In this document: positions 19,850 through 26,358 of the stretch, piece after piece
Position numbering within the stretch: the stretch's first letter is position 1
Layout: each line of letters opens with the position of its first letter
Virus record (IMG/VR): IMGVR_UViG_3300009082_000018
Location: 32,001 to 96,000 of that record
Length of the DNA stretch: 64,000 bases
Strand: one strand, 5' to 3'
DNA from: a virus
Program-made: the position numbers and the translations under genes
Notes under the pieces: generated by a model
What the model was told of the DNA's origin: nothing
The model's database searches: none
What the model saw: the letters and a program-made list of their open reading frames with translations, nothing else

Positions 19850-19982
19850 GGGTGGACCGACAGAGGTTGGATTATCCATGCTAAGGACGAGGTCGCGGGT
19901 TCGAATCCCGTCGGGCTCCTTCGGGGGCCCGTGGCTCAGCGGTAGAGCGCGTAAAACTCCAGCTTCAACCCCTTGTTCACCC
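19850..19982 (+). ncRNA. YrlA-type Y RNA (Ro60-binding stem plus permuted tRNA domain)
   Basis: GGGUGGAC-C(bulge)-GA / UU-GUUCACCC helix; second stem AGGUUGGA/UCCAGCUU; T arm, acceptor closed by a UUCG loop, D arm in permuted order. Confidence 0.88.
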
Positions 19983-20644: not shown

Positions 20645-20715
20645 GAGTCCGTGTCCGAGAGGCGAGGTACCTGGCTGCAACCCAGGTCACGGGGGTTCAA
20701 ATCCCTCCGGACTCT
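20645..20715 (+). tRNA. tRNA-Cys(GCA)
   Basis: GAGTCCG/CGGACTC, U73; loop CT-GCA-AC. Confidence 0.88.
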
Positions 20716-20720
20716 CTGAT

Positions 20721-20796
20721 GCACCCGTGGTCCAAAGGATGGGCACCGGTCCTCTAAACCGGATCCATGCTGGTTCGAGTCCAGCCGGGTGTGCCA
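20721..20796 (+). tRNA. tRNA-Arg(UCU), C33, CCA encoded
   Basis: GCACCCG/CGGGTGT; loop CC-TCT-AA. Confidence 0.88.
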
Positions 20797-20797
20797 A

Positions 20798-20870
20798 GGT
20801 CCCGTGGTCTAAAGGATGGGCACCTGTTTCCTAAACAGGATCAATGCAGGTTCGAGTCCTGCCGGGATCA
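20798..20870 (+). tRNA. tRNA-Arg(CCU)
   Basis: GGTCCCG/CGGGATC; loop TT-CCT-AA. Confidence 0.88.
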
Positions 20871-20874
20871 CTGA

Positions 20875-20948
20875 GCTGCGATAGTGTAGGGGACTCTGCA
20901 CGGTGCTCTCCGAAAGCACAGGTCTGGGCTCGACTCCCAGTCGCAGCA
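20875..20948 (+). tRNA. tRNA-Arg(CCG), C54
   Basis: GCTGCGA/TCGCAGC; loop CT-CCG-AA; T loop CTCGACT. Confidence 0.82.
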
Positions 20949-20950
20949 TT

Positions 20951-21023
20951 GGGCGGTTCTCCTAGCGGAATGGAACCTGACCTACACTCAGGAATAATGG
21001 GGGTTCAACTCCCTCACCGCCCA
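20951..21023 (+). tRNA. tRNA-Val(UAC), C33
   Basis: GGGCGGT/ACCGCCC; loop CC-TAC-AC. Confidence 0.83.
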
Positions 21024-21027
21024 TCAT

Positions 21028-21099
21028 CTGCCCATGGTCTAAAGGAAGGGCCCCTGACTACGGATCAGGTGCATGCAGGTTCGAGTCCTGCTGGGCAGG
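21028..21099 (+). tRNA. tRNA-Arg(ACG)
   Basis: CTGCCCA/TGGGCAG; loop CT-ACG-GA. Confidence 0.88.
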
Positions 21100-21105
21100 C
21101 TACAC

Positions 21106-21180
21106 GCCGGGGTGGCGCAAATGGAAGATCGCTCCAGACTTAGGATCTGGCTGTTGAGGGTTCGAATCCCTTCCCCGGTA
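21106..21180 (+). tRNA. tRNA-Leu(UAG), short variable loop
   Basis: GCCGGGG/CCCCGGT; loop CT-TAG-GA. Confidence 0.86.
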
Positions 21181-21183
21181 CTT

Positions 21184-21257
21184 GGCAGCAGGGAGGAGAG
21201 GGACTCCTCACCGCTCTCATAAAACGGGAATTGCTGGTTCGATCCCAGCTGCTGCCA
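21184..21257 (+). tRNA. tRNA(CAU), probably elongator Met
   Basis: GGCAGCA/TGCTGCC fully paired; loop CT-CAT-AA. Confidence 0.75.
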
Positions 21258-21260
21258 CGA

Positions 21261-21333
21261 GCCCTCGTAGCCCAAGAGGAAGCGGCATCGCCTTAAAAGC
21301 GATCAAGTGGGGGTTCGAGTCCCTCCGGGGGCA
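21261..21333 (+). tRNA. tRNA-Leu(UAA), short variable loop
   Basis: GCCCTCG/CGGGGGC; loop CT-TAA-AA. Confidence 0.85.
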
Positions 21334-21336
21334 CAC

Positions 21337-21409
21337 CGAGGAGTAGGGCATTGGATGACCCGCTCGGATGGGGTCCGAGAGCAAGCTGGTTCGATTCCAG
21401 TCTCCTCGA
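21337..21409 (+). tRNA. tRNA-Pro(GGG)
   Basis: CGAGGAG/CTCCTCG; loop AT-GGG-GT; D and T arms identical to Pro(UGG). Confidence 0.85.
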
Positions 21410-21418
21410 TCTTGATAT

Positions 21419-21492
21419 GCCAGGGTAGCCCAATCGGTAGTGGCACCAGCCCGAGGCGCTGGACAGTGTGGGTTCGAATCCCATCCCTGGTA
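21419..21492 (+). tRNA. tRNA-Leu(GAG), C33, short variable loop
   Basis: GCCAGGG/CCCTGGT; loop CC-GAG-GC. Confidence 0.85.
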
Positions 21493-21496
21493 CTAT

Positions 21497-21571
21497 GGCG
21501 CGGTAGCCCAACTGGTAGGAGGCACCGGCCTCAAGCTCCGGACAGTGAGGGTTCGAATCCCTCTCGCGCTA
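21497..21571 (+). tRNA. tRNA-Leu(CAA), short variable loop
   Basis: GGCGCGG/TCGCGCT; loop CT-CAA-GC. Confidence 0.84.
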
Positions 21572-21611
21572 CGACTTGTGAAAACGACCACGATCTGCTA
21601 TTGGTGCAATC

Positions 21612-22121
21612 ATGCAAACGCTCGTACTCGACCAAGGCTACCAGCCGATCAACACCGTCCCTTGGACCAAGGCGATGGGATACATCGCCCGTGGCAAGGT
21701 CGACGTGCTGGAGGAGTACGAGCAGGAGGTCCACTTCAACATGGGCATGCCGGCGGTGGTGAGGCTCAACCATCGCATCAGTGCCAGCAAGAAGAGGATC
21801 AAGTTCTCTCGTCAGAATGTGCTGGCGAGGGACAAGTTCAGTTGCCAGTACTGCGGCGCCCACGGACGTGACGTGGTTCTAACCTTCGATCACATCATCC
21901 CCAGGTCTCGGGGTGGTCGAACAGAGTGGGAGAACATCGTCATGGCCTGCCAGGAGTGCAATGCACGAAAGGCTGACCTGACGCTGAGAGAATCGGGAAT
22001 GCGTCTGCGGACGCAGCCTGTTCGACCGACGTGGGTGCCCACTTTCAACGTCGCTCTGCGGGATGCTGGCAACATCCCACCAGAGTGGCGGAACTACTGG
22101 ACAACAGAGCTGCAGCCGTAG
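21612..22121 (+). CDS. HNH endonuclease (McrA-like family)
   Basis: TLVLD.GY.P; SR.NVL.RD...CQYCG; T.DHIIPRSRGG...WEN.V.AC..CN..KA. Confidence 0.92.
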   Translation: MQTLVLDQGYQPINTVPWTKAMGYIARGKVDVLEEYEQEVHFNMGMPAVVRLNHRISASKKRIKFSRQNVLARDKFSCQYCGAHGRDVVLTFDHIIPRSRGGRTEWENIVMACQECNARKADLTLRESGMRLRTQPVRPTWVPTFNVALRDAGNIPPEWRNYWTTELQP

Positions 22122-22184
22122 AACCTTGTCCGGAATACTTCCTTGTCCTCTACGTAGCGGACAGGGAGGAAAACCGGACAACTT

Positions 22185-22267
22185 GGAGGGTGCCGCCGGT
22201 TGGTTGGCAACACGGTTTGAACCCGTGGGTGGTCGCAAGGCTAGGGGTTCGACTCCTCCACCCTCCG
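22185..22267 (+). tRNA. tRNA-Ser(UGA)
   Basis: GGAGGGT/ACCCTCC, G73; long variable arm with GCAA loop; loop TT-TGA-AC. Confidence 0.85.
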
Positions 22268-22310
22268 CTCTTCCCGCCAAATCCTTCATGATTATTTTTG
22301 ATTCTTTTGC

Positions 22311-22338
22311 TTGACAAAGAATCATTCATAGGGATAAT
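22311..22338 (+). promoter_or_regulatory. sigma70-type promoter for the Y RNA-Ro60 unit
   Basis: TTGACA-N16-GATAAT with an AT-rich upstream tract; predicted start coincides with the 5' end of the first Y RNA. Confidence 0.7.
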
Positions 22339-22343
22339 AGGAT

Positions 22344-22432
22344 CATGAGGGACCGACTGAGTTAGGTTATCAAACTCTCACTTTGATTGGGGCCTCTGGC
22401 CCCGCTCCTAGCTCAACAACTTGTTCCTCATG
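22344..22432 (+). ncRNA. short Y RNA (Ro60-binding stem, no tRNA domain)
   Basis: CAUGAGGGAC-C-GA / UU-GUUCCUCAUG; second stem UGAGUUAGG/CCUAGCUCA; followed by U6. Confidence 0.82.
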
Positions 22433-22453
22433 TTTTTTGATCTGAAAAGGAGA

Positions 22454-22586
22454 ATTGAGGGACCGACGATTTGGGTTACCTTGGACCTGTTGGGGCTGGT
22501 TCAATTCCAGCTCGGTCACTTAGGTGATCGATAGTGTAGAGGCAGCACAGCAGGAGTGTTCCCAGATCAACAACTTGTTCCTCAAT
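22454..22586 (+). ncRNA. YrlA-type Y RNA (Ro60-binding stem plus permuted tRNA domain)
   Basis: AUUGAGGGAC-C-GA / UU-GUUCCUCAAU; GAUUUGGG/CCCAGAUC; T arm GCUGG UUCAAUU CCAGC, closed acceptor, D arm GUGU...GCAC. Confidence 0.88.
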
Positions 22587-22599
22587 CTTTATTGGCTGT

Positions 22600-22670
22600 G
22601 AGAGTGGACCGCTGATCTTGGGTTACCTTCTTTGGTGAACAACCCCAGGGTCGATCTTTTGTTCGCTCTC
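22600..22670 (+). ncRNA. short Y RNA-like element in the Ro60 leader
   Basis: GAGAGUGGAC-C-G / U-GUUCGCUCUC; GAUCUUGGG/CCCAGGGUC; shares GGUUACC with the other copies. Confidence 0.75.
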
Positions 22671-22696
22671 CTTTTGTTCGCCCATGGAGGTGGACC

Positions 22697-24298
22697 GTGC
22701 AGAACTTCGGTGGCTCGTTCTCGACTGTTAGCACTCCGCAGACCCAGCCGACCCCGGGCAAGAACGAAATCAAGATGCGCTCCGGTGGCTACGGCTTCGC
22801 CGTGGATGACTGGGTGCGCCTCAACCGGTTTTTGATCATGGGCTCGGAGGGCGGAACCTACTACGCCTCGGAACGCGAGATGACCAAGGTCGCCAGCGAT
22901 GCGGCCATGAGGCTGGTCAGACAGAATGGTGTGGCGGTGGTCAACCACGTCGTCGAGATCAGCCAGTCCGGTCGTGCGTTCAAGAACGATCCGGCGCTGT
23001 GGGTTCTGGCCATGGCATCGCAGCTCGGTGATCAGGCTACCAAAGAGCTGGCGTACAAGTCGCTGCCGTTGGTGGCACGCATCTCGACCCACCTGTTCCA
23101 CTGGCTGCAGTACACCAAGGCCTTCGGGCACCAGGGAGGCAACGGCTTCAAGCGGGCAGTGGCACGATGGTACCTGGAGCAGACACCGGCTCATCTGGCT
23201 CACCAGGTCGTGAAGTATCAGGCTCGTGATGGGTGGTCGCACCTGGACGCTCTTCGGATCGGTCACCCGACTCCGTCGGATGAGCTGTTCCAGGCAATCT
23301 TCCACTACGTCAAGCACGGCAGGACCAAAGATCTGTCGGCGGTTGCGGCGGTTCCGGAAGAGCTGACGCTCATCTGGGCGTGGGAGAAGATCAAAGAGGC
23401 AAAGAACGCCGATGAGGTCGCCAATCTGATCAGTGCTTTCAAGTTGCCGCACGAGTGCGTGCCGAACGAGTGGAAAGACCAGCAGGGGGTCTGGGGTGCG
23501 TTGTTGAACTCGATGGCACCGCACGCCATGCTGCGGAACCTGGGCAAGATGACCTCGGTGGGTCTGCTAGAGGGCAAGTCGGCGGCGGTGCAGAAGGTCG
23601 TGGACACGCTGACGGACATGGAGCGTCTGAAGAAGGCCAGGATGCACCCGATGTCGGTGCTGACTGCGTTGGCGGTCTACCGGACGGGCCGTGGCATCAA
23701 GGGCTCGCTGAGCTGGAACCCGAACCGTCGGGTGATCGACGCGCTCGATGAGGCCTTCTACCTGTCCTTCGGGACAGTGACGCCGACGGGCAAGCGGCTG
23801 CTTCTGGCCCTGGACGTATCAGGGTCGATGGGATCGCCGTGCGCTGGTTCTCCGCTGACCTGCAGGGAGGCGACGGCAGCCATGGCGATGGTCACGGCAC
23901 GGACGGAAGAGGACTACGAGATCGTCGGCTTCTGCGACAGCCTGAAGACGCTGAGCATCTCGCCGAAGCAGCGTCTGGATGACGTCGTGGAGTCGATCTC
24001 CCATCTGTCCTTCGGAGGCACGGACTGCAGCTTGCCGTTCCGTTGGGCGCAGTCCAAGCAGCAGAAGTTCGACGGTGTTATCACCTACACCGACAATGAG
24101 AGTTGGGGAGGTCCAGTGAAGGTTCACCAGGCAATGCAGCAGTATCGCCAGAAGATGGGCACCACAACCAAGGGAGCCTTCGTGGCCTTTGCGGCCAATG
24201 AGTACTCGGTGGCAGACCCGGACGACGCGGGTCAGATGAACTTCGTGGGCCTGGACGCCAACCTGCCACAGGCGCTCTCCAGCTTCATTGGAGAGTAG
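22697..24298 (+). CDS. rsr: Ro60/TROVE domain RNA-binding protein (Rsr ortholog)
   Basis: GGY.F....W.RL.RFLI.GSEGGTYY; KYQ.R.GWSH.D.LR; A.LRNLGKMT; HP..VL.A...Y..G.G; VWA DVSGSM and YTDNE.W; GGAGG SD. Confidence 0.95.
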   Translation: MQNFGGSFSTVSTPQTQPTPGKNEIKMRSGGYGFAVDDWVRLNRFLIMGSEGGTYYASEREMTKVASDAAMRLVRQNGVAVVNHVVEISQSGRAFKNDPALWVLAMASQLGDQATKELAYKSLPLVARISTHLFHWLQYTKAFGHQGGNGFKRAVARWYLEQTPAHLAHQVVKYQARDGWSHLDALRIGHPTPSDELFQAIFHYVKHGRTKDLSAVAAVPEELTLIWAWEKIKEAKNADEVANLISAFKLPHECVPNEWKDQQGVWGALLNSMAPHAMLRNLGKMTSVGLLEGKSAAVQKVVDTLTDMERLKKARMHPMSVLTALAVYRTGRGIKGSLSWNPNRRVIDALDEAFYLSFGTVTPTGKRLLLALDVSGSMGSPCAGSPLTCREATAAMAMVTARTEEDYEIVGFCDSLKTLSISPKQRLDDVVESISHLSFGGTDCSLPFRWAQSKQQKFDGVITYTDNESWGGPVKVHQAMQQYRQKMGTTTKGAFVAFAANEYSVADPDDAGQMNFVGLDANLPQALSSFIGE

Positions 24299-24301
24299 CT
24301 C

Positions 24302-24511
24302 ATGCCCCGCCGCCCAGAAGACCAACCGCAAACCCCACCTGAGGTCTTCACCGTCCGCCTGCAAGGTCAGGATGCGGCGGACTTCCGTCGTCTGCAATCA
24401 GCAGCTGCAGCTGAGGTCCCTCCAGGAGCCCGGCAGACTCGTCACAGCTTTGCTGTCTGGTTGCTGAAATTGGGGATGAAAGCGATCGAGACGGTCAAGC
24501 GGAAGCGCTAG
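24302..24511 (+). CDS. small basic protein, possible ribbon-helix-helix DNA binder
   Basis: VFTVRL beta strand followed by two predicted helices; starts 3 nt after the rsr stop. Confidence 0.5.
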   Translation: MPRRPEDQPQTPPEVFTVRLQGQDAADFRRLQSAAAAEVPPGARQTRHSFAVWLLKLGMKAIETVKRKR

Positions 24512-24634
24512 CTGTTGCTGCTGCCTAGGTCTCCAGCAGGTCCCACACCATCCCTAGAGATGACGTTTCCGTGCTCGTCCACGTCCACGTTCAGTGCTGG
24601 CAGCTCACCACTGCTGATGTAGTTTCCAATTCTC

Positions 24635-24904
24635 CTATGGTTTCTTTTCTGGCTCTCCCGATGGTGGTTCTGGCTCCTTTGGAGTCGGCACAGGCTTGGA
24701 TACCTGAAAGACCTTGCACCGGACGGCTAGGAACAGCTCTCCTTCCTGCACACCAGTGATCCGCATTTTGGAATCGTTGTCAAGCTCGATCCTATAGCTC
24801 TCCTGGTGCAGCATCTGATGGAAGATCGCCAGCAGCTGCTCAGACATCTGCTTCGGAGATAGGTTTCGTTTACCTGAACGAGGACGTTTTTGTTGTGCAG
24901 ACAT
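24635..24904 (-). CDS. hypothetical protein
   Basis: Continues the minus-strand run after the kinase. Confidence 0.4.
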   Translation of the reverse strand: MSAQQKRPRSGKRNLSPKQMSEQLLAIFHQMLHQESYRIELDNDSKMRITGVQEGELFLAVRCKVFQVSKPVPTPKEPEPPSGEPEKKP

Positions 24905-25532
24905 CTTTGATAGTCGCCGAAATCGCGTCCCAGTCCGGAACGGCAGTGGTTGGATCCCAGATCAGTCTGGAAACCTTTACAGCGTGTCCCCAAGGCATCA
25001 AGCCAGACTCAGCTTCTTGCAGGAGCTTCTGGTAGCCTTCGTTGAGTCGCTCGAGGTAGTCGATAGCCACAGCTGCCTCAGCCCCACGGTTCCGCTGTCG
25101 CATACGTTCGTATGCCGTCTTCGGCTGAACGTCAAGGAAGATCAGTTTGGTGGGTGGAAGAAGCTCGTGGCACATGACGTTGTAGCAGTACTCGTAGGTA
25201 TCCCAGTCGAGCTGGTTGATGTTACCCATTGCAGTGTGCAGGCTGGCGAAGACTCGGTCACCGCTGAGAGAGCGATCGAGAATCGCGCCGGCAAAGGGCC
25301 CAACTCCCAGAGAGATGAGGGCAGCCATTTTCTGCATTGCGTACCTTCGATGCAAAAGGTAGATCTGCATTCCAAAGGCATAGGTCTTTGGGTCCTGGTA
25401 GAACTTCTCCAGGTATGGGTTGGTGTCGACTGGCTCTTCGATGACGGAGAAGTTGAGCCGCTTTCCGACTTCGCGGGAGAACGTGGTTTTTCCACAGCCA
25501 ATGATTCCTTCTACCCAGAGTAGAGGCTTCAT
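24870..25532 (-). CDS. deoxynucleoside kinase (dNK/dGK family)
   Basis: VEGIIGCGKTT, EEPV..NPYL..FY.DP, DRS...D.VF, R.R..E. Confidence 0.92.
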   Translation of the reverse strand: MKPLLWVEGIIGCGKTTFSREVGKRLNFSVIEEPVDTNPYLEKFYQDPKTYAFGMQIYLLHRRYAMQKMAALISLGVGPFAGAILDRSLSGDRVFASLHTAMGNINQLDWDTYEYCYNVMCHELLPPTKLIFLDVQPKTAYERMRQRNRGAEAAVAIDYLERLNEGYQKLLQEAESGLMPWGHAVKVSRLIWDPTTAVPDWDAISATIKDVCTTKTSSFR

Positions 25533-26149
25533 GCCAATACCTCGCGGTAGTCTGCAAATACCTCGGGGCAGTTCTCGAGAAGGATGCGGCCGATCATGAT
25601 AGCAACCTCTCGCATCTGTGGGTGAGCCTTGGTCGACGTCCTCATCTTGAGGAAGTGGCGCCACTCACGCAGGTTTGCTGTCGCCACCAGCTCGGTCTTG
25701 AGGCAGGTGGGTAGGACAGAACGGGCGATCTCAGGCGGCACTCCCATGGTGATCATTCCGAGGTAGCTGTGTTCTGCCATGCGAATGGAGGCTATCCACA
25801 GATCTCTAGTCTCCCCTGTGAGTCCTGGAGGCTCGATGACAGTGATCTCTCCCCCGAATTTGTCCTTGCCATAGTTGCAGTAGCGCGTCGACTCCTGCGA
25901 GTAGCTCATGAGCCTGTGTCGAACGAACTCGTGGCTCACGCCTCGGTCGCAGACCACCCTGAAACTGGCCCAGCCGTGTTCGATCACGGACTCGTGACCG
26001 CGCTCGAGAAGCATCTTCACGAACTTGGCTGCGCTCTCAGCTGTGATCTTGTCCTCGGACTTGTAGCAAGTCCGCCCGCACACCTCGATGAGCTTCTGGG
26101 CGTTGGGGATGATGAACTCCCGCTTGACTGACTGCCACACAATCTTCAT
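25529..26149 (-). CDS. thyX: flavin-dependent thymidylate synthase
   Basis: GHESV.EH, RHR..SYSQESTRY, ARSVLP, NLREWRHF..R....AH. Confidence 0.95.
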   Translation of the reverse strand: MKIVWQSVKREFIIPNAQKLIEVCGRTCYKSEDKITAESAAKFVKMLLERGHESVIEHGWASFRVVCDRGVSHEFVRHRLMSYSQESTRYCNYGKDKFGGEITVIEPPGLTGETRDLWIASIRMAEHSYLGMITMGVPPEIARSVLPTCLKTELVATANLREWRHFLKMRTSTKAHPQMREVAIMIGRILLENCPEVFADYREVLA

Positions 26150-26358
26150 TGTGCTCCTCCTTGCAGGCACAGCAAGATGATTCCGAGGTTGGTCTTGTCG
26201 AACTGGTACGTATCACCAGATTCTTCTCGTACCTTTCTCAGATGTGCTATCAAGTCCTTGCTCTGCACTGCGTTCATCATCAAGATCGTTCTGATCTTGT
26301 TGGTTTTAGCTGGCGGTGGTGTCGTCTTTGGCTTGATCTTGGGTGGCGTTTTCTGCAT
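26146..26358 (-). CDS. hypothetical protein with K/P-rich N-terminus
   Basis: Stop overlaps the thyX start (ATGA). Confidence 0.5.
   Translation of the reverse strand: MQKTPPKIKPKTTPPPAKTNKIRTILMMNAVQSKDLIAHLRKVREESGDTYQFDKTNLGIILLCLQGGAQ

What the first reader, a model, noticed from the sequence alone, without database searches (positions are those of the whole stretch)
22674..22699. Ro60 ribosome-binding site folds into a strand-swapped Y RNA helix, suggesting autoregulation
Seen: UUGUUCGCC (22674-82) pairs with GGUGGAC-C-G (22689-97) around a 6-nt loop. These are nearly the same two strands as the YrlA stem at 19850 (GGGUGGACCGA/UUGUUCACCC) in reverse order, with the bulged C kept. The hairpin spans the SD GGAGG (22686-90) and reaches the G of the GUG start. 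Inference: free Ro60 binds its own initiation site and represses translation, and Y RNAs, including the copy made only when the attenuator is read through, titrate it off. That would link Ro60 synthesis to tRNA stress. I know of no described case.
Basis: partly seen in the sequence, partly recalled or inferred. Interest (0 to 1): 0.8.

Follow-up and report, generated by a model that had tools for sequence, protein, structure and literature searches.

The report
Y-RNA look-alike hairpin on Ro60 start
The start of this phage's Ro60 gene folds into a small hairpin that copies, in swapped order, the helix by which Ro60 grips its Y RNAs, and similar hairpins sit just before the Ro60 gene in many unrelated bacteria and phages, which suggests (untested) that the protein limits its own synthesis.

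Summary
22676-22682 pairs with 22689-22695, C22696 bulges and U22675 pairs with G22697. The hairpin covers the Shine-Dalgarno site and the first base of the GUG start, which an alignment with 24 homologues supports. Both arms repeat the window's own Y RNA stems.

On its own the hairpin is weak (-8.6 kcal/mol, z -1.5) and forms only in some sequence contexts.
- A hairpin of the form UG-stem-loop-stem-CCG(A) ends within 50 nt of the rsr start in 22 of 152 leaders.
- The controls (coding, reverse-complement, shuffled) give about 1 in 152.
- It occurs in 22 of 102 protein clusters at 70% identity, including cultured phages Zooman and Karp, with differing, still-complementary stems.
- It usually ends 13-21 nt before the AUG.
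- Its stem type follows the local Y RNAs.

A covariance model of the common form does not score the window's copy, so it is an analogue rather than a sequence relative.

The best reading is a Ro60 operator giving translational feedback by RNA mimicry, as in thrS, ribosomal-protein and MS2 coat operators. Binding and repression are untested. I found no description in Rfam or in the papers searched. This scan noted similar leader hairpins before TROVE-like genes on other DNA.

The parts
22674..22682 (+). 5' arm of the leader hairpin (UUGUUCGCC). It is equivalent to a Y RNA 3' strand.
   Evidence: Sequence and fold. It is part of an 11-nt direct repeat, CTTTTGTTCGC at 22656-22666 and 22671-22681, which copies the 3' strand of the adjacent Y RNA.
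22683..22688 (+). Hairpin loop CAUGGA, which holds the first three bases of the SD.
22689..22697 (+). 3' arm GGUGGAC-C-G with bulged C22696. It is equivalent to a Y RNA 5' strand, holds the last two SD bases and ends on the G of the start codon.
   Evidence: GTGGACCG also occurs at 19852 and 22604 in the Y RNA stems.
22686..22690 (+). Shine-Dalgarno GGAGG, 6 nt before the start.
   Evidence: Sequence. Its predicted probability of being unpaired depends on context.
22697..24298 (+). rsr / Ro60 gene (533 aa, GUG start).
   Evidence: ORF list; Pfam TROVE 2.8e-33 and vWA_Ro60 2.3e-55; N-terminal alignment. GTG starts are rare in this family, 9 of 238.
22600..22670 (+). Third tandem Y-RNA-like module (Y3). 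Its stem GAGAGUGGAC-C-G / UUGUUCGCUCUC supplies both arm sequences of the hairpin.
   Evidence: Sequence. With its stem enforced, the leader hairpin forms with probability about 0.7.
22457..22583 (+). Second Y-RNA-like module, with a tRNA-like insert (GAGGGACCGA ... CUUGUUCCUC).
   Evidence: Sequence; canonical-order helix search.
22347..22429 (+). First Y-RNA-like module (GAGGGACCGA ... CUUGUUCCUC).
   Evidence: Sequence; canonical-order helix search.
22311..22338 (+). Promoter-like site TTGACA-16-GATAAT (11 of 12). It would start a Y1-Y2-Y3-rsr transcript, and no terminator-like site lies before rsr.
19850..19982 (+).
   Evidence: Sequence; Rfam RF02553 at 37 bits, below the gathering score.

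Best explanation
The hairpin is a cis-acting copy of the Ro60-binding helix of Y RNAs, written in swapped strand order and capped by a loop, and placed on the ribosome-binding site of the Ro60 mRNA. It is one form of a widespread class of such hairpins in rsr leaders. The proposed mechanism is that Ro60 not occupied by Y RNA binds this helix, keeps the SD and start codon paired or covered, and blocks the 30S subunit. Y RNAs made from the same transcript compete for the protein and relieve the block, so Ro60 synthesis tracks the supply of free Y RNA. Shown here: the structure, its resemblance to the local Y RNA stems, the start codon, and the recurrence, position and stem variation (still complementary) of equivalent hairpins in other rsr leaders. 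Inferred: Ro60 binding, repression and competition.
For: (1) The anatomy and start codon are confirmed.
(2) Enrichment. Of 152 rsr leaders, 22 have a UG-stem(5 or more)-loop(3-12)-stem-CCG hairpin ending within 50 nt of the start. The controls give 1 of 152 at CDS +300, 1 of 152 at CDS +900, 1 of 152 on the reverse complement, and 9 of 1520 shuffles. The positional histogram has one sharp peak in the -50..-1 bin, 62 hits per 232 loci against 0.01-0.12 per locus elsewhere.
(3) Pairing given the motif. A leader CCGA has a complementary UG arm (stem of at least 4) in 28 of 80 cases, against 44 of 2371 in coding sequence.
(4) Spread. Positives occur in 22 of 102 Ro clusters at 70% identity. They include Armatimonadota, Chloroflexota, Myxococcota and Brocadia MAGs and jumbo-phage contigs, as well as cultured phages Zooman (E 6e-5) and Karp (E 0.006), where the only model hit in each locus is the leader. 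In Karp the leader follows a protein gene, so the hairpin there is not a by-product of a Y RNA array.
(5) The UUG, bulged-C and CCG positions are nearly invariant, while distal stem pairs differ between loci yet stay complementary.
(6) Spacing is tight. The 3' end lies 13-21 nt before the AUG and 2-5 nt before the SD in the common form. In L102, L187, L119, L231 and L240 the CCG runs into the SD. In L095, L173 and the window the SD lies in the 3' arm.
(7) The hairpin's stem type matches a local Y RNA helix in 26 of 42 loci, against 15.5 +/- 2.2 when loci are permuted.
(8) The same loop-capped helix forms the long arm of tRNA-like RNAs beside rsr in 63 of 241 loci. This topology is therefore a normal way of presenting the helix.
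(9) Leaders of co-oriented HNH genes in the same loci carry the hairpin in only 1 of 21 cases.
Against: No binding or expression data exist. The window's copy lacks the closing A-U pair, because U22698 stands where other copies have A. A covariance model of the common form gives it 0.3 bits and does not list it at E up to 10 in the window. It is a marginal fold by itself (z -1.5). When Y3 is not held in its Y RNA fold, or when more coding sequence is included, other pairings win and the hairpin's probability falls to 0-0.09. The window-like subclass is small: two other loci, L095 and L173, where about 0.2-1 are expected by chance. The alignment behind the pair-by-pair stem counts was chosen by a pairing rule, so those counts are partly circular. 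Related loci are not independent. About three quarters of rsr leaders show no such hairpin, including the Bxz1-like, Sparky and Forza phages. No close relative of this phage could be fetched, so conservation of this exact hairpin is untested.
Confidence: 0.5

Rival explanations
1. The hairpin is a neutral leftover of local duplication. The Y3 3' strand was copied by an 11-nt tandem duplication, and the 5'-strand-like GGUGGACCG is the stump of a fourth Y RNA onto which the rsr start was fused. The pairing then follows automatically from tandem Y RNAs with similar stems and has no function.
For: There is a direct repeat, CTTTTGTTCGC at 22656-22666 and 22671-22681. In tandem Y RNA arrays every 3' strand followed by the next 5' strand can pair this way, for example 22420-22466. 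The covariance model of the common leader hairpin does not score the window's copy.
Against: The same architecture (a Y RNA 3' strand, then a separate UUG arm, a short loop and a CCG arm just before the SD) recurs in distant lineages such as L100, L137, L170 and L200. It also occurs where no Y RNA precedes the gene, as in Karp. Orphan 5' strands would decay unless selected. The position is restricted to the last 50 nt before the start.
Confidence: 0.15
2. The hairpin is a structural element that works without Ro60. It would partly mask the SD and start to set a low translation rate, or it would mark and protect the 5' end of the rsr mRNA after the upstream Y RNA is cut out of the common transcript.
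For: A promoter-like site at 22311-22338 and the absence of a terminator imply a Y1-Y2-Y3-rsr precursor that must be processed. M. smegmatis YrlA and YrlB are reported to be processed from one precursor upstream of rsr (PMC4201824). With the transcript starting at 22671 the hairpin sits at the 5' end and forms with probability 0.7. 5'-terminal hairpins are known mRNA stabilisers (general knowledge).
Against: A generic hairpin would not need the UUG, bulged-C and CCG(A) signature, which is nearly invariant across leaders while the rest of the stem varies. It would also not need to track the local Y RNA stem type.
Confidence: 0.2
3. Ro60 does bind the hairpin, but the outcome is not repression. 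Binding could shield the mRNA from 5'-end-dependent decay, which would be positive feedback, or it could hold newly made Ro60 near the Y RNAs of the same transcript to aid assembly.
For: The evidence that points to Ro60 recognition is the same as for the best explanation. Nothing computed here gives the sign of the effect.
Against: In the common form the helix ends 2-5 nt before the SD, and in the window it contains the SD and the start. A 60-kDa ring bound there should exclude the 30S subunit, as in the thrS and MS2 operators (established knowledge of those systems).
Confidence: 0.15

Closest known systems
Autogenous translational operators that mimic the protein's main RNA ligand: E. coli thrS operator (tRNA-Thr anticodon-arm mimic next to the SD) and ribosomal-protein leaders (S8, S15, L1, L20)
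   Same: A copy of the protein's natural RNA binding site sits on or beside the ribosome-binding site of its own mRNA, and the natural ligand (here Y RNA) would compete. In the common rsr-leader form the hairpin ends a few nucleotides before the SD, like thrS domain 2.
   Different: The protein is Ro60 and the ligand is Y RNA. The mimic has its strands in swapped order and is capped by a loop. Binding and repression are not demonstrated.
MS2/R17 coat protein - replicase operator hairpin
   Same: It is a short phage hairpin with one bulged base that contains the initiation region of the regulated gene. This resembles the window's version, where the SD and the first base of the start lie in the 3' arm.
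   Different: The MS2 operator is the coat protein's primary specific site, not a copy of a separate small RNA. The proteins and folds are unrelated.
Y RNA Ro60-binding module (metazoan Y RNAs, Deinococcus Yrn1, bacterial and phage YrlA/YrlB; Chen et al. 2014, PMC4201824; Rfam RF02553)
   Same: It has the same helix signature: ...C-C(bulge)-G(A) paired to (U)UG..., with stem sequences identical to the window's own Y RNAs.
   Different: In Y RNAs the helix is formed by the 5' and 3' ends, and an effector or tRNA-like domain lies between the strands. Here the 3'-type strand comes first, a 6-nt loop closes the end that is open in Y RNAs, no effector domain is present, and the element is part of an mRNA.

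Membership tests
Ro60/Rsr protein (TROVE + Ro60 vWA) | TROVE domain followed by the Ro60-type vWA domain, about 530 aa | tested here: met
   Pfam PF05731 at 2.8e-33 and PF25045 at 2.3e-55. The protein is 47-58% identical to the 24 aligned Ro60/TROVE homologues.
Y RNA Ro60-binding helix | Conserved helix with a single bulged C: 5' ...C-C-G-A paired to U-U-G... 3' | tested here: inconclusive
   The bulged C22696, C95-G76 and G97-U75 are present. The closing A-U pair is absent because U22698 faces U22674.
Y RNA Ro60-binding helix | The helix is formed by the 5' and 3' termini of a small RNA that carries an internal effector domain | tested here: not met
   The strands are in reverse order and joined by a 6-nt loop, and the element lies in the rsr mRNA. 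It is therefore not a Y RNA.
Y RNA Ro60-binding helix | Bound by Ro60 | not testable with these tools
   This needs a gel shift or filter-binding assay.
rsr-leader strand-swapped Ro-helix hairpin (class defined here; model R1) | UG-stem(4 or more)-loop(3-12)-stem-CCG on the rsr strand, ending within 50 nt of the start | tested here: met
   In the window the stem is 6 bp plus G-C, the loop is 6 nt, and the hairpin ends at +1. The class is found in 43 of 231 leaders with the strict rule.
rsr-leader strand-swapped Ro-helix hairpin (class defined here; model R1) | Significant score with the covariance model built from 24 leaders of the common form (hairpin plus A-rich SD flank) | tested here: not met
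   The hairpin is not among window hits at E up to 10. When only 22640-22730 is searched, it aligns with all pairs standard but scores 0.3 bits.
rsr-leader strand-swapped Ro-helix hairpin (class defined here; model R1) | The stem type follows the genome's own Y RNA helices | tested here: met
   The window's GGA-C-CG / UUGUUC matches its four Y RNA stems.
Autogenous translational operator by RNA mimicry | The operator overlaps or abuts the ribosome-binding site of the regulator's own gene and resembles its RNA ligand | tested here: met
   The SD at 22686-22690 and G22697 of the start lie within the hairpin, and the arms equal the Y3 and YrlA stems.
Autogenous translational operator by RNA mimicry | The protein binds the operator and lowers translation, and the natural ligand relieves it | not testable with these tools
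   This needs binding, toeprint and reporter assays.

The most novel reading that the evidence does not exclude
Ro60 levels in many bacteria and phages are set by a conserved operator that mimics the Y RNA binding helix in the rsr leader, so that the protein is made only as free Y RNA allows. In addition, the same loop-capped helix defines an undescribed, non-permuted class of tRNA-like Y RNAs, in which a normal tRNA body has the Ro helix in place of the anticodon arm. The known YrlA would then be the circular permutation of that class.
Probability: 0.4. Interest if true: 0.75.

Novelty: new member of a known kind. Interest (0 to 1): 0.65.

Why it matters
How Ro60 and Y RNA amounts are matched is not known, although in every system studied the protein and its RNAs depend on each other. 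A conserved Y-RNA-like hairpin on the rsr ribosome-binding site offers a simple feedback loop that can be tested directly. It is present in cultured actinophages (Zooman, Karp) as well as in uncultured bacteria. It also gives a compact natural Ro60 ligand of about 22-25 nt for structural and binding work. The hairpin in rsr leaders, together with the non-permuted tRNA-like RNAs carrying the same capped helix, marks RNAs that current Rfam models miss.

Tried and rejected
- **Close relatives of this phage.** The Ro60 cluster has only two other members, 99-100% identical. Scans with the single protein in viral and metagenome contigs found nothing, and an exact-word scan also found nothing. Conservation of this exact hairpin is therefore untested.
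- **Known RNA families.** Rfam shows nothing on the hairpin in the window or on eight other rsr leaders.
- **Intrinsic terminator of the upstream Y RNA.** Rejected. No U tract follows the hairpin here or in other leaders, and the scan finds no terminator between 22338 and rsr.
- **The 3' arm as the 5' strand of a giant helix closed after the gene.** No UUGUUC-type partner lies within 340 nt after the stop.
- **A general feature of genes in these islands.** Rejected. Only 1 of 21 HNH gene leaders has it.
- **Covariance model R1 as a membership test for the window.** Negative.
- **Thermodynamics as a decider.** Inconclusive, because the result depends on where the transcript is taken to begin and end.
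- **Literature.** Full-text searches for Ro60 or Rsr autoregulation, and targeted term searches within the main text of PMC4201824 and PMC12135203 (not full readings), found no description. The library lacks many subscription papers.

Full report
**What the window is.** The window is part of a 109.6-kb IMG/VR viral contig. It carries an array of about 42 tRNA genes and an HNH endonuclease gene at 21612-22121. A promoter-like site, TTGACA-16-GATAAT, lies at 22311-22338. Three tandem Y-RNA-like modules follow at 22347-22429, 22457-22583 and 22600-22670. Then comes an ORF at 22697-24298 with TROVE and Ro60-type vWA domains. A fourth, YrlA-like RNA lies inside the tRNA array at 19850-19982 and matches Rfam YrlA below threshold (37 bits).

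**The observation.** It is correct to the base.
- The 5' arm UUGUUCGCC (22674-22682) and the 3' arm GGUGGACCG (22689-22697) form seven contiguous pairs around the loop CAUGGA.
- C22696 is bulged, and U22675 pairs with G22697.
- The SD GGAGG (22686-22690) straddles the loop and the 3' arm.
- G22697 is the first base of the GUG start.

The start codon is sound. It is the first possible start after the in-frame stop at 22613, and the product aligns from its second residue with the conserved MQ...TPQ N-terminus of 24 homologues.

Both arms copy the neighbouring Y RNA stem. GTGGACCG also occurs at 22604 and 19852. The 5' arm is the second copy of an 11-nt direct repeat of the Y3 3' strand (22656-22666 and 22671-22681). 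One detail departs from the canonical helix: U22698 stands where CCGA has A, so the closing A-U pair is lost. The G of CCG doubles as the G of GUG, which may explain a GTG start in a family where 222 of 238 genes start with ATG.

**Strength of the hairpin alone.** It is modest: -8.6 kcal/mol, z -1.53. Its predicted occupancy depends on context.
- Probability is about 0.7 if the transcript starts after Y3, or if Y3 is held in its Y RNA fold.
- Probability is about 0.09 if 20 more coding bases are included.
- Probability is 0 if Y3 is left free, because the Y3 apical strand (22626-22642) then pairs with the leader and also buries the SD.

Thermodynamics therefore cannot decide the question.

**Comparative test.** No close relative was available. 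I therefore fetched 240 Ro60 loci: 80 viral, 80 metagenomic and 80 from named genomes. I fixed each start codon from the N-terminal alignment. I then searched for the descriptor UG-stem-loop-stem-CCG, which is the Ro helix in swapped order.

With a stem of at least 5 and a loop of 3-12, the counts were as follows.

| Region tested | Hits |
|---|---|
| rsr leaders, hairpin ending within 50 nt of the start | 22 of 152 |
| Coding windows (two positions) | 1 of 152 each |
| Reverse complement | 1 of 152 |
| Shuffled leaders | 9 of 1520 |
| -400 to -300, where Y RNAs and tRNAs lie | 4 of 132 |

- Along the loci the hits form one sharp peak in the 50 nt before the start.
- A CCGA in the leader is preceded by a matching UG arm (stem of at least 4) in 28 of 80 cases, against 44 of 2371 in coding sequence.
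- With the looser rule, 43 of 231 leaders are positive. A further 16 have a C/C mismatch in place of the bulge.
- Positives fall in 22 of 102 Ro clusters at 70% identity.
- They include Armatimonadota, Chloroflexota, Myxococcota and Brocadia MAGs and jumbo-phage contigs.
- In cultured phages, Microbacterium phage Zooman and Streptomyces phage Karp carry it. There the only hit of the covariance model in the whole locus is the annotated Ro gene's leader (E 6e-5 and 0.006). In Karp the leader follows a protein gene, so the hairpin is not a side effect of a Y RNA array.
- Bxz1-like, Sparky and Forza phages lack it.

**Features of the class.**
- The UUG, bulged-C and CCG positions are nearly invariant, while distal stem pairs differ between loci yet stay complementary: CUCGUG/CACGAG, CUCAUG/CAUGAG, CCCGAG/CUCGGG, UCCGC/GCGGA. 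The aligned set was chosen by pairing, so these counts are partly circular. The controls above are the unbiased evidence.
- In the common form the hairpin ends 13-21 nt before the AUG, and the SD follows within 2-5 nt (CCGA-AAGGAG).
- In a Myxococcota-type group the G of CCG is the first G of GGAGG.
- In L095 (-25..-1), L173 from a Brocadia MAG (-22..-2) and the window, the SD lies in the 3' arm.
- The stem type (GGG, GAG or GGA before CCG) matches a local Y RNA helix in 26 of 42 loci, against 15.5 +/- 2.2 when loci are permuted.
- Several loci repeat the window's layout of a Y RNA 3' strand followed by a separate copy that forms the hairpin: L100, L137, L170, L200.

**Limits for the window's copy.** The model R1, built from 24 leaders of the common form without the window, finds untrained leaders. 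It does not list the window's hairpin at E up to 10. On the leader alone it aligns every pair but scores 0.3 bits. The window's element is therefore an analogue built from its own GGAC/UUGUUC-type stems, not a detectable sequence relative. Its subclass has only two other members.

**Support for the capped helix as a Ro ligand.** R1 also hit many sites on the rsr strand away from the leaders. These are tRNA-like RNAs of normal topology. The anticodon arm is replaced by a long arm that ends in the same loop-capped UUG...CCGA helix, followed by AGG-N5-6-GGUUAYC, a motif I recall from human Y1 RNA (from memory, not checked with a tool here). A regex for D arm, capped helix, GGUUAYC and T loop matches 79 times in 63 of 241 loci, and once on the other strand. 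If these RNAs are Ro partners, as their place and motifs suggest, a loop-capped helix is a usual way to present the site.

**Mechanism.** The most likely reading is an autogenous operator by RNA mimicry. Free Ro60 binds the leader helix and blocks the 30S subunit, and Y RNAs compete. The geometry resembles thrS domain 2 in the common form and the MS2 coat operator in the window's form.

The rivals are these.
- A neutral duplication remnant. The recurrence and fixed position argue against it.
- A Ro-independent masking, processing or stabilising hairpin. The invariant Ro signature, and the way the stem tracks local Y RNA types, argue against it.
- Ro60 binding with a positive or assembly role. 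This is not excluded, although the overlap with the ribosome site favours repression.

**Prior knowledge.** Rfam has no family on these leaders. Full-text searches, and term searches within Chen et al. 2014 and the 2025 Thermus phage Ro60 paper, gave no report of Ro60 autoregulation or of a leader hairpin. The library is incomplete. Earlier notes of this scan describe similar leader hairpins before TROVE-like genes on other DNA. They agree with this reading but are not independent evidence.

Noticed in passing
L216:835-940, L200:764-872, L170:947-1054, L187:3915-4060 and others: These are non-permuted tRNA-like Y RNAs. A normal tRNA body (acceptor, D arm, T arm, some ending in CCA) has its anticodon arm replaced by a long arm ending in a loop-capped Ro-binding helix, followed by AGG-N5-6-GGUUAYC. 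A regex finds 79 on the rsr strand in 63 of 241 loci and 1 on the other strand. YrlA as published is the circular permutation of this layout. None was found in the scanned stretch around rsr, window 20697-26296. I found no description of them.
   Followed up: partly
window 23441-23477 (+): The leader-hairpin model hits inside the rsr coding sequence (E 0.09), on the codons for the conserved KLPHECVPNEW segment. The match is UUGCCGCAC-GAG-UGCGUGCCGAA. It may be a by-product of the conserved peptide.
   Followed up: no
window 21612-22121; L109:3706-3760: An HNH endonuclease of the same family lies on the rsr strand in 21 of the fetched loci. In one of them (L109) its leader carries the same Ro-helix hairpin followed by an SD.
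   Followed up: partly
L087, L165, L168, L171, L198, L203, L229 (25-45 nt before the rsr start): Verrucomicrobial rsr leaders carry a different conserved hairpin, GUGCCG-A(A/G)AGUUGG-CGGCAC, with a covarying stem (GCGUCG/CGACGC in L165). Its loop contains CGA...UUGG in the canonical Y RNA order.
   Followed up: no
window 22626-22642 with 22674-22692: The apical strand of Y3 (ACCUUCUUUGGUGAACAA) is complementary to the leader's 5' arm and SD. In unconstrained folds this pairing replaces both the Y3 fold and the hairpin and still buries the SD.
   Followed up: partly
L187, L199, L117, L211, L163, L170: The layout of a tRNA array plus Y RNAs plus rsr, as in this phage, recurs in contigs assigned to bacterial MAGs (Kofleriaceae, Armatimonadota, Promineifilaceae), with 3-15 tRNA genes flanking rsr on the same strand.
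   Followed up: no
window 24302-24511 (+): A 69-codon ORF starts 4 nt after the rsr stop (TAGCTCATG) and has no Pfam match. It may be co-translated with rsr.
   Followed up: no
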